Source: Escherichia phage EC121
Direction: 5' to 3' (one strand)
Length of the DNA stretch: 64,000 nucleotides
Sequence record: NC_054909.1
The notes under the pieces are model-generated. The model saw only the letters and a program-made list of their open reading frames with translations, was not told the origin of the DNA and made no database searches. The translations under genes were made by a program, and so were the position numbers. The stretch's first letter is position 1, and each line of letters starts with the position of its first letter. This document shows, piece after piece, positions 38,666 through 39,420 of the stretch.

Positions 38666-39214
38666 ACCCAAGAAAACATCTACTGATCGCTGATACCACT
38701 GCAGATCCAAATAGCCATTACGCACATTAAATTGATAGAACATATGACAAGGTGGTAATGCCATTTGCTTGAGTTCTGCCGGATTCCATGCTGAAACAAT
38801 TTGACGTCTATCATTTGGCAGTTTTTTAATACGTTCAACAACTTCTATAATTTGATCTACGCCACCAAAATCGCGCCACTGTTTTCCATAAATTGGACCA
38901 AGTTCACCGCTATGGTATCCTAAATCTTTTGCTTGATTTTCGTAATTTTCATCCCAAACTGTTTTGCCTTGGATTAACGAATCATGTTGAATTAATCGCA
39001 AATCATTGACATTTGTGCTTCCCGATAAAAACCATATTAGCTCAGCAATACAGGCTTTCCATGCTAATTTTTTAGTTGTTACCACAGGAAAACCTTTAGT
39101 TAAATCCCAGCGTAATTTAGTACCGAACAAAGCAATTGTTCCTGTGCCTGTTCGGTCATCGGTTTCATAGCCATTTTCCAGAATATCTTTAATTAAAAAT
39201 TGGTATTGTTTCAT
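38666..39214 (-). CDS. td: Thymidylate synthase, exon 1
   Basis: Starts at [26 protein letters not shown]… (ATG 39212-39214) and ends …RSVDVFLG at the 5' splice site; the ORF track extends it to an upstream TTG. Confidence 0.9.
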
Positions 39215-39420
39215 TAGTTCATCCAAGAATATGTAGAAGGATATTTGGCAAAGTTAGGTTTATATCCTAATTTAACCATTTGTTTTGCTTTGCGAGTAAA
39301 TCCTAAAGAACGCTCACCTTTAAGATACTGTTTTGGTGTCATAGGCCCTTGATGCATCTGCCGACAAATAAAAAGGGCCATAGCATTAGGAACATCCTTA
39401 ACTTTTAATTTATTGCTCAT
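39214..39420 (-). CDS. 68-aa basic hypothetical protein inserted between frd and td
   Basis: ATG overlaps the frd stop (ATGA) and its TAA overlaps the td ATG (TAATG); sequence [68 protein letters not shown]. Confidence 0.5.

What the first reader, a model, noticed from the sequence alone, without database searches (positions are those of the whole stretch)
39214..39420. A 68-codon ORF inserted at the classical frd/td ATGA overlap
In T4, as I recall it, the frd stop and td start overlap directly (…TATAAATGAAACAATACCAA…). Here about 206 bp lie between two ATGA-type junctions: the frd stop overlaps the ATG of a 68-codon ORF, and that ORF's TAA overlaps the td ATG (TAATG). Perfect coupling on both sides argues for a translated gene rather than junk. 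The product is small, very basic and unrecognisable to me; it could be the remnant of a DNA-binding module of a former mobile endonuclease or a new accessory factor.
Basis: partly seen in the sequence, partly recalled or inferred. Interest (0 to 1): 0.6.

Follow-up and report, generated by a model that had tools for sequence, protein, structure and literature searches.

The report
Small accessory gene between frd and td
The 68-codon ORF is a real, conserved small phage gene that many T4 relatives already carry, annotated only as "hypothetical protein"; T4, T2 and T6 lack it and its function is still unknown, so it is a catalogued accessory gene, not a new discovery.

Summary
On the minus strand, frd (39417-39998), a 68-codon ORF (39214-39420) and td (ATG at 39214) are joined by ATGA and TAATG overlaps. 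T4 has the direct frd/td ATGA overlap, so the window carries exactly 206 extra bp. The ORF is a real gene: dN/dS is 0.06-0.23 and it matches PHROG 9550 (unknown function) over its full length.

It is not new. About 140 deposited phage genomes hold it, mostly annotated "hypothetical protein", some 100% identical. The frd-td interval is a variable slot in T4-like phages, holding 0-2 copies of td.1 (PHROG 1928, the T2/T6 occupant) followed by 0-1 copy of this ORF. The same precise presence/absence, bounded by ATGA...(A/G)TGA, recurs in Tequatrovirus, Dhakavirus and Kanagawavirus. The copy was exchanged recently between Tequatrovirus and Dhakavirus (dS 0.11, against 1.06 in frd).

The protein is very basic (pI 10.3). 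Its confident model (pLDDT 85) has three helices and no known sequence or fold relative. It shows no link to homing-endonuclease DNA-binding modules. Distant homologues in unrelated large Enterobacterales phages are not next to td. I infer a dispensable, trans-acting accessory protein, possibly nucleic-acid-binding. Interest is low to moderate.

The parts
39214..39420 (-). ORF68: 68 codons plus TAA; member of PHROG 9550 (unknown function); product [68 protein letters not shown]
   Evidence: dN/dS 0.06-0.23; AF2 pLDDT 84.8, helices 13-24, 29-38, 43-50
39417..39420 (-). ATGA overlap: frd stop TGA and ORF68 start ATG. The upstream context is identical to the T4 frd/td junction.
39212..39216 (-). 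TAATG overlap: ORF68 stop TAA and td start ATG. The ORF's last codons TGG ATG AAC put a GGA(T)GA Shine-Dalgarno-like motif 8-13 nt before the td ATG.
   Evidence: sequence read directly
39417..39998 (-). frd (dihydrofolate reductase), 193 aa, 94.6% nt identity to T4 frd
38663..39214 (-). td exon 1 (thymidylate synthase; true start is the ATG at 39214, [12 protein letters not shown]...). The exon's 3' limit at about 38663 is approximate. The first ~50 nt (39214 down to about 39166) belong to the tract that is ~97% identical to Dhakavirus JS98.
39166..39425 (-). Laterally exchanged tract, ~97% identical to phage JS98 (genus Dhakavirus), against ~77% in the flanking frd and td sequence. It runs from the frd stop/ATGA, through ORF68, to ~50 nt into td.
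   Evidence: dS 0.11 against 1.06 in frd and saturated in td nt 61-540

Best explanation
ORF68 is a genuine protein-coding accessory gene of the PHROG 9550 family. When present in T4-like phages it occupies the last position of a variable array of small genes between frd and td: frd, then td.1 (PHROG 1928) in 0-2 copies, then ORF68 in 0-1 copy, then td. It has no promoter or terminator of its own. It is presumably transcribed with frd and td and translated by termination-reinitiation coupling: the ATGA overlap with the upstream gene takes over exactly the initiation context that td uses in T4, and the TAATG overlap passes ribosomes on to td. The gene behaves as a discrete 206-bp module bounded by the two start/stop overlaps (AATGA direct repeat). 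The same precise presence/absence is seen in three genera, and the copy here was exchanged recently between Tequatrovirus and Dhakavirus. That exchange had one crossover at or within about 6 nt of the ATGA and the other about 50 nt inside td. T4 (none) and T2/T6 (td.1 only) carry other subsets of the array. Inferred, not shown: the 7.9-kDa, pI 10.3, three-helix product acts in trans as a dispensable early/middle accessory protein. It most likely binds nucleic acid or an acidic host factor and is probably not a subunit or regulator of thymidylate synthesis, because homologues in unrelated phages are not linked to td.
For: Shown. Coordinates and overlaps. T4 lacks the ORF. About 140 phage records hold it, mostly as 'hypothetical protein'. 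PHROG 9550 match over the full length at E 1e-45, and all 35 aligned relatives hit only that family. Purifying selection, dN/dS 0.06-0.23. Always directly upstream of td in Tequatrovirus, Dhakavirus, Marfavirus, Kanagawavirus and Serratia phage 4S. td.1 of T6 and every ORF between frd and ORF68/td in other genera belong to PHROG 1928. Allele census of roughly 363 td.1, 134-140 ORF68 and 70 empty among 571 junction-bearing records. Identical precise indel in T4/window, AnYang/JS98 and KLB31/CIP9, with closely related flanks. Recent inter-genus exchange: nt identity 97.6% for ORF68 against 78% in flanks, dS 0.11 against 1.06. The td N-terminus QFLIKDIL is native to Dhakavirus and accompanies ORF68 in Tequatrovirus. 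No promoter- or terminator-like sites above chance, and none inside the insert. No RNA structure signal, z -0.25. Homologues at 28-46% identity in Phapecoctavirus, in relatives of Pectobacterium/Cronobacter ~150-kb phages, and in metagenomic phage contigs are not next to td. Very basic composition. Confident three-helix model.
Against: There is no direct evidence of translation (no Ribo-seq or proteomics available here). Function rests only on composition and context; no sequence or fold relative gives a mechanism. The strict ORF68-td adjacency and coupling in every T4-like genus could still reflect a td-related role in those phages. The direction of transfer (Dhakavirus to Tequatrovirus) rests on a short td 5' signature: 4 against 7 differences in 60 nt, and two amino acids. 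Whether the ancestral T4-like state was the full array or the direct overlap is unresolved. Direct frd/td overlaps also occur in Mosigvirus-like and T5-like phages and in phage IME13 (inferred from the feature column only). The allele census is approximate because only counts were available, not per-genome parsing.
Confidence: 0.8

Rival explanations
1. ORF68 is functionally tied to thymidylate synthesis in T4-like phages, for example as a small subunit, chaperone or regulator of Td/Frd in the dNTP-synthesising complex. It would be made in fixed ratio with them through translational coupling.
For: It is invariably immediately upstream of td, overlapping its start, in five T4-like genera, whatever lies between it and frd. 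It is co-transferred with the td 5' end.
Against: T4, T2, T6 and most Tequatroviruses make functional Td without it. Homologues in Phapecoctavirus, Pectobacterium/Cronobacter-type phages and metagenomic contigs lie in arrays of small unannotated genes or near replication genes, with no thymidylate synthase within the 4-5 kb examined on each side.
Confidence: 0.12
2. ORF68 is the degenerate remnant of the DNA-binding module of a former free-standing or intron-encoded homing endonuclease.
For: The td region is a known playground of homing endonucleases, and I-TevI sits about 700 bp away in this window. The protein is basic and helical. hhalign places its N-terminus on I-TevI residues 194-215.
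Confidence: 0.03
3. ORF68 is an anti-defence or host-takeover protein that inhibits a host factor specific to Enterobacterales by protein-protein interaction and does not bind nucleic acid.
For: It is small, dispensable, patchily distributed and laterally exchanged. It is shared by at least three unrelated groups of virulent phages of Enterobacterales. It sits among accessory genes, with a Tad2-like gene and other small genes nearby in metagenomic contigs. This is the usual profile of phage counter-defence genes (established knowledge).
Against: No similarity to any described protein. PADLOC covers defence systems only and gave nothing. There is no co-variation test with host defence systems. 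The extreme positive charge fits nucleic-acid binding at least as well.
Confidence: 0.3
4. The insert matters as RNA or DNA and not as protein: a spacer that tunes td translation or mRNA stability, with the ORF incidental.
For: The ORF's last codons supply a GGA(T)GA motif before the td ATG, and the insert preserves coupling on both sides.
Against: Synonymous sites are near saturation between genera while amino acids are conserved (dN/dS 0.06-0.23). The protein is conserved at 28-46% identity in phages where it is not next to td. There is no excess RNA structure (z -0.25) and no Rfam match.
Confidence: 0.03

Closest known systems
PHROG 9550 members annotated as hypothetical proteins, e.g. Shigella phage pSs-1 pSs1_00241, Enterobacteria phage P922 BD_41 (WYD66343.1), Yersinia phage fPS-90 g234c, Klebsiella phage AmPh_EK29 QFR57117.1, phAPEC8 gp235 (YP_007348396.1)
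   Same: Same gene. It is 100% identical at protein level in many Tequatroviruses, with the same position and the same ATGA/TAATG junctions. Identity is 79% in Marfavirus and 43% in Phapecoctavirus.
   Different: Nothing of substance for the Tequatrovirus copies. In Phapecoctavirus and other distant phages the gene is not adjacent to td. None has a described function.
td.1 of phages T6, T2 and RB33 (PHROG 1928; named td.1 in GenBank AY262134.2)
   Same: It is the alternative occupant of the same frd-td slot. It is also a small gene of unknown function, and also polymorphic among T-even phages. In Serratia 4S, Marfavirus and Kanagawavirus CIP9 it sits directly upstream of ORF68.
   Different: It is an unrelated protein (115 aa, pI 8.5, a different PHROG). 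In T6 it has its own spacers and ribosome-binding site: 20 nt after the frd stop and 44 nt before the td ATG, not overlaps.
Classical T4 frd/td ATGA overlap (translational coupling of adjacent genes)
   Same: ORF68 uses exactly the same upstream sequence and ATGA overlap with frd that td uses in T4. A second overlap (TAATG) hands over to td.
   Different: There are two coupled junctions instead of one. That coupling actually operates was not tested here.
Modular shuffling of accessory genes in T4-type phages by recombination at short conserved sequences (e.g. the PeSL promoter/stem-loop cassettes; recalled from the literature, not read here), and homing-endonuclease co-conversion of flanking markers (PMC2988022)
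   Same: A discrete accessory module is present or absent at identical boundaries in several genera and was recently exchanged between genera.
   Different: No early promoter or stem-loop flanks the module. The boundaries are start/stop overlaps with only 3-6 nt of repeat. The high-identity tract stops about 480 nt before the end of td exon 1, where the intron begins, so it is not a continuous I-TevI co-conversion tract, and JS98 has no td intron.

Membership tests
PHROG 9550 (phage protein family, unknown function) | Significant full-length match to the family HMM | tested here: met
   E 1.3e-45, residues 1-68 on profile 1-68/68. All 35 aligned relatives hit only this family.
Translationally coupled gene within the frd-td operon | Start codon overlapping the upstream stop, stop overlapping the downstream start, and no promoter or terminator of its own | tested here: met
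   ATGA and TAATG overlaps read directly. No promoter- or terminator-like site within the insert, and regional counts at or below the shuffle expectation. Actual coupling of translation cannot be tested with these tools.
Homing-endonuclease DNA-binding module (I-TevI-type zinc finger/minor-groove helix/HTH, NUMOD/IENR) | Detectable sequence or profile similarity to such modules | tested here: not met
   No Pfam hit for any of 22 members. hhalign against I-TevI gives probability 0.13%.
Homing-endonuclease DNA-binding module (I-TevI-type zinc finger/minor-groove helix/HTH, NUMOD/IENR) | HTH-type fold | tested here: not met
Free-standing homing endonuclease gene (seg/mob type) | GIY-YIG or HNH nuclease domain | tested here: not met
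   The protein is 68 aa with no nuclease domain. All family members are 66-108 aa.
td.1 family (PHROG 1928) | Match to the PHROG 1928 profile | tested here: not met
   ORF68 matches only PHROG 9550. td.1 and its relatives match only PHROG 1928.
Promoter/stem-loop (PeSL-like) mobile regulatory cassette of T4-type phages | Early promoter and stem-loop at the module boundary | tested here: not met
   No sigma-70-like promoter or terminator-like hairpin at the boundaries. Folding z-score is -0.25.
Known anti-phage defence system components (PADLOC) | Match to a PADLOC model | tested here: not met
   0 families for 35 members. Anti-defence libraries were not available, so membership in a known anti-defence family was not tested.

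The most novel reading that the evidence does not exclude
ORF68 could exemplify a promoter-less 'coupling cassette'. On this reading it is a complete gene delimited by two start/stop overlaps that moves between phage genera, and is gained or lost precisely, by recombination at the ATGA microhomology itself. Each event would leave the translational coupling of the essential neighbours intact. Its product would be a previously undescribed small basic fold acting on a conserved Enterobacterales target, such as nucleic acid or a defence or host factor.
Probability: 0.15. Interest if true: 0.55.

Novelty: already known. Interest (0 to 1): 0.27.

Why it matters
As a gene, it is already deposited in about 140 phage genomes and in PHROGs, so the sighting adds nothing new. 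Three points are useful.

- T4's textbook frd/td ATGA overlap is only one of at least three alleles of a variable slot, and it is the minority one: about 12% of T4-like records, against about 64% with td.1 and about 24% with ORF68.
- The same exact 206-bp module is present or absent in three genera and was recently exchanged between two of them. That makes it a clean natural example of gene-sized modular exchange that preserves translational coupling.
- The family is an uncharacterised, strongly selected, very basic small protein shared by unrelated virulent Enterobacterales phages. That makes it a reasonable candidate for a screen of host-takeover or counter-defence functions.

Because T4, T2 and T6 all lack it, classical genetics never saw it.

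Tried and rejected
- **Sequence libraries.** Pfam, NCBIfam, PADLOC and PDB-sequence searches, with the single protein and with profiles, gave nothing meaningful.
- **First structure model.** AF2 with the shallow alignment was unreliable (pLDDT 57.6). It was replaced by the 35-sequence alignment (pLDDT 84.8).
- **Spurious hit.** P0025, a 1402-aa hit in the exhaustive search, is a tandem-repeat artefact and was ignored.
- **Endonuclease remnant.** Rejected.
- **RNA element or spacer.** Rejected.
- **I-TevI co-conversion as the vehicle for the JS98/Tequatrovirus exchange.** Rejected. The high-identity tract ends about 50 nt into td, far from the intron site, and JS98 has no intron.
- **td-linked function for the whole family.** Weakened, because distant homologues are unlinked to td.
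- **Paralogues in the window.** None.
- **Literature.** Searches for the gene, the junction or the accession found no description of ORF68. Two searches failed on term length.
- **Self-correction.** My interim statement that the insert is 207 bp was wrong; it is 206 bp.

Full report
**1. The observation**

The genes of this region lie on the minus strand. The ORF listing gives three ORFs in a row:
- frd at 39417..39998 (193 aa);
- a 68-aa ATG ORF at 39214..39420, exactly the coordinates of the finding;
- td exon 1, whose true start is the ATG at 39214 ([12 protein letters not shown]...).

Downstream come I-TevI (37797..38534) and the second td exon.

Read on the coding strand, the junctions are:
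- ...GTA TAT AAA TGA / ATG AGC AAT AAA: the frd stop and the ORF start share ATGA.
- ...TGG ATG AAC TAA / ATG AAA CAA: the ORF stop and the td start share one A (TAATG).

The window differs from T4 by exactly 206 bp, bracketed by an AATGA direct repeat.

Only 0.6% of shuffles of the internal sequence stay open. The product is 7.9 kDa, pI 10.3, net charge about +10.6.

**2. It is a real gene, and it is already in the databases**

- A megablast of the junction finds 571 phage records. Of these, 134 contain the full ORF-bearing allele, almost always annotated "hypothetical protein".
- The 206-bp module alone is found in 140-145 records, two of them 100% identical in DNA.
- tblastn finds the protein in 236 records.
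- The protein matches PHROG 9550 ("unknown function") end to end at E 1e-45. All 35 relatives I aligned hit that PHROG and no other.
- In the 5.8-billion-protein collection the family is small: about 40 clusters, all 66-108 aa, none named, none with a Pfam domain. The exhaustive profile search of 1.8 billion representatives gives 11 hits, one of them a repeat artefact.
- Between genera dN/dS is 0.06-0.23 while synonymous sites approach saturation. The reading frame is therefore under purifying selection.
- There is no excess RNA structure (z -0.25), no Rfam match, and no promoter- or terminator-like site inside the insert.

**3. What the locus is: a variable slot, with ORF68 as its last element**

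Tequatrovirus has three alleles:

| Allele | Phages | Approximate share of 571 records |
|---|---|---|
| No insert, direct ATGA overlap | T4 | ~70 (by subtraction) |
| ORF68 | this window, P922, pSs-1, Sf21, fPS-90 and others | 134-140 |
| A different 115-aa gene, named td.1 in GenBank AY262134.2 | T6, T2, RB33 | 363 |

In other T4-like genera the interval holds more genes:

| Phage (genus) | Arrangement |
|---|---|
| Serratia phage 4S | frd-126aa-ORF68-td |
| AmPh_EK29 (Marfavirus) | frd-107aa-117aa-ORF68-td |
| CIP9 (Kanagawavirus) | frd-111aa-119aa-ORF68-td |
| KLB31 (Kanagawavirus), myPSH1140 (Karamvirus) | the same two genes, without ORF68 |
| PS2, RCIP0102 | one such gene, without ORF68 |

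All those intervening genes, including T6 td.1, belong to one family, PHROG 1928. The general architecture is therefore frd, then td.1 (0-2 copies), then ORF68 (0-1 copy), then td. The three Tequatrovirus alleles are subsets of it. When ORF68 is present it always abuts td.

**4. A precise, recurrent and recently exchanged module**

The junction table shows the same exact presence/absence in three genera: T4 vs the window, AnYang vs JS98 (Dhakavirus), and KLB31 vs CIP9 (Kanagawavirus). In each pair:
- the upstream context is identical up to ATGA;
- what follows is either GCAATAAA...(A/G)TGA|AACAATA or directly AACAATA;
- the flanks are closely related.

Between this window and JS98:

| Region | nt identity | dS |
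|---|---|---|
| frd | 77.9% | 1.06 |
| ORF68 | 97.6% | 0.11 |
| td exon 1 | 78.5% | saturated (nt 61-540) |

The high-identity tract runs from the frd stop to about 50 nt into td.

The td N-terminus QFLIKDIL is also found in AnYang, which lacks ORF68, so it is native to Dhakavirus td. It accompanies ORF68 in Tequatrovirus, whereas T4, T6 and RB33 have QDLIKDIF. The last 22 nt of frd in the window are T4-like.

I infer that the ORF68 allele of this lineage came from a Dhakavirus-like donor by recombination. One crossover would lie within about 6 nt of the ATGA and the other in the conserved td 5' region. The direction rests on few sites and is tentative.

It is not a continuous I-TevI co-conversion tract. 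The tract ends far from the intron site, and JS98 has no intron. Exon-I-biased co-conversion (PMC2988022) could still help spread junction alleles among intron-plus and intron-minus T-evens.

Whether the deeper ancestor had the array or the direct overlap is open. ORF68 divergence in Marfavirus, Kanagawavirus and 4S is of the same order as td divergence, which argues for an old ORF68-td linkage. Direct frd/td overlaps also occur in Mosigvirus-like and T5-like phages and in IME13 (feature column only).

**5. What the protein might do**

Sequence and structure give no mechanism:
- There are no Pfam, NCBIfam, PADLOC or PDB-sequence matches.
- With a 35-sequence alignment, AlphaFold gives a confident model (pLDDT 84.8; helices 13-24, 29-38, 43-50; ordered termini).
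- For a 68-residue helical protein this does not prove a new fold. It does mean that no HTH or endonuclease module is recognisable. hhalign against the window's own I-TevI gives probability 0.13%.

The endonuclease-remnant idea is therefore not supported.

Conserved positions are basic and aromatic: K4, K6, P11, R20, K34, G40, F41, M48, L51-G52-Y53, P55.

Homologues at 28-46% identity occur in three further settings. None has a thymidylate synthase within the 4-5 kb examined on each side.
- Phapecoctavirus (phAPEC8 gp235), inside a long run of small unannotated genes.
- Relatives of ~150-kb Pectobacterium/Cronobacter/Enterobacter phages, next to PIF1-like and DnaB-like helicase genes.
- Other metagenomic phage contigs.

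My best inference, not shown, is a dispensable trans-acting accessory protein of early/middle expression. I split the function roughly as:
- about 0.4 that it binds nucleic acid, given the charge;
- about 0.3 that it targets a host or defence protein;
- about 0.1 that it has a td/frd-related role restricted to T4-like phages.

**6. Expression logic** (inferred from sequence)

ORF68 has taken over precisely the initiation context that td uses in T4: the same 22 nt upstream and the same ATGA. Its last codons (TGG ATG AAC TAA) give td a GGA(T)GA motif and a TAATG restart site. The module can therefore be added or removed without uncoupling td from frd. That plausibly explains why only precise variants are seen.

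**7. Verdict**

- The "real gene" interpretation is supported.
- "Endonuclease remnant" is not supported.
- "New" is not supported: the gene is catalogued as PHROG 9550 and annotated in many genomes, though JS98's record leaves it unannotated and no paper found here describes it.

Novelty: already known, function uncharacterised. Interest is low to moderate. It rests mainly on the tidy modular-exchange pattern and on an unstudied, strongly selected small basic protein that T4, T2 and T6 happen to lack.

Noticed in passing
L009 (JS98, EF469154) 2501-2707: The JS98 record leaves a 203-nt unannotated gap between frd and td. That gap encodes the ORF68 homologue at 98.5% amino-acid identity, so the gene is missing from that reference annotation.
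   Followed up: yes
window 39998..40243 (-) and 40252..40587 (-): Two further small genes (81 aa, PHROG 3183; 111 aa, PHROG 3566; both of unknown function) lie between frd.1 and frd. T4 has only a 72-nt gap there; P922 and T6 carry related genes. This is another variable slot next to the one studied.
   Followed up: partly
L002 1752-2099 (T6 td.1); L004 1840-2497; L007 2326-3004; L008 2624-3004; L017-L020: td.1 (PHROG 1928, unknown function) is the majority occupant of the frd-td slot (~363 records). It is tandemly duplicated in Marfavirus, Kanagawavirus and Karamvirus. A conserved G-R/T-F-x-K-x-G motif lies near its C-terminus.
   Followed up: partly
window 36500..41000: An Rfam gathering-threshold search finds no group I intron, although td is clearly split around the I-TevI ORF (37797..38534). 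The endonuclease ORF inserted in the intron may break the model match; this was not pursued.
   Followed up: no
PV390659.2 (phage vB_EcoM_P8), hit H6: That record annotates the ORF68 homologue as 'flagellar biosynthesis protein'. No search here supports the name, so it looks like an annotation error.
   Followed up: partly
P0018 / P0043 (IME339, Klebsiella phage EI) and P0009: Some records annotate only a 42-aa C-terminal part of the gene, using an internal start. One metagenomic variant (73 aa) carries a 5-residue internal duplication (TTPKH-MTPKQ) in the loop between helices 1 and 2.
   Followed up: no
L007 3204 (CIP9 td start): In CIP9 the td start overlapping the ORF68 stop is GTG (GTGA) instead of ATG. 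Its ORF68-less relative KLB31 has ATGA at the equivalent td.1b/td junction.
   Followed up: no
feature column (T5-like phages JLBYU40, EH1, FFH_1; Stenotrophomonas phage IME13): A dihydrofolate reductase gene overlaps or abuts the td start in T5-like phages and in a distant T4-like phage as well. The direct frd/td junction may therefore be much older than the T-even group. This was inferred from feature names only.
   Followed up: no
L013 206-739 and L012 2061-2462: Metagenomic contigs carrying distant ORF68 relatives also encode a Tad2-like (anti-Thoeris) protein and a PrlF-antitoxin-like protein a few kb away. This is consistent with accessory or counter-defence gene neighbourhoods, but the genes are not adjacent.
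   Followed up: no
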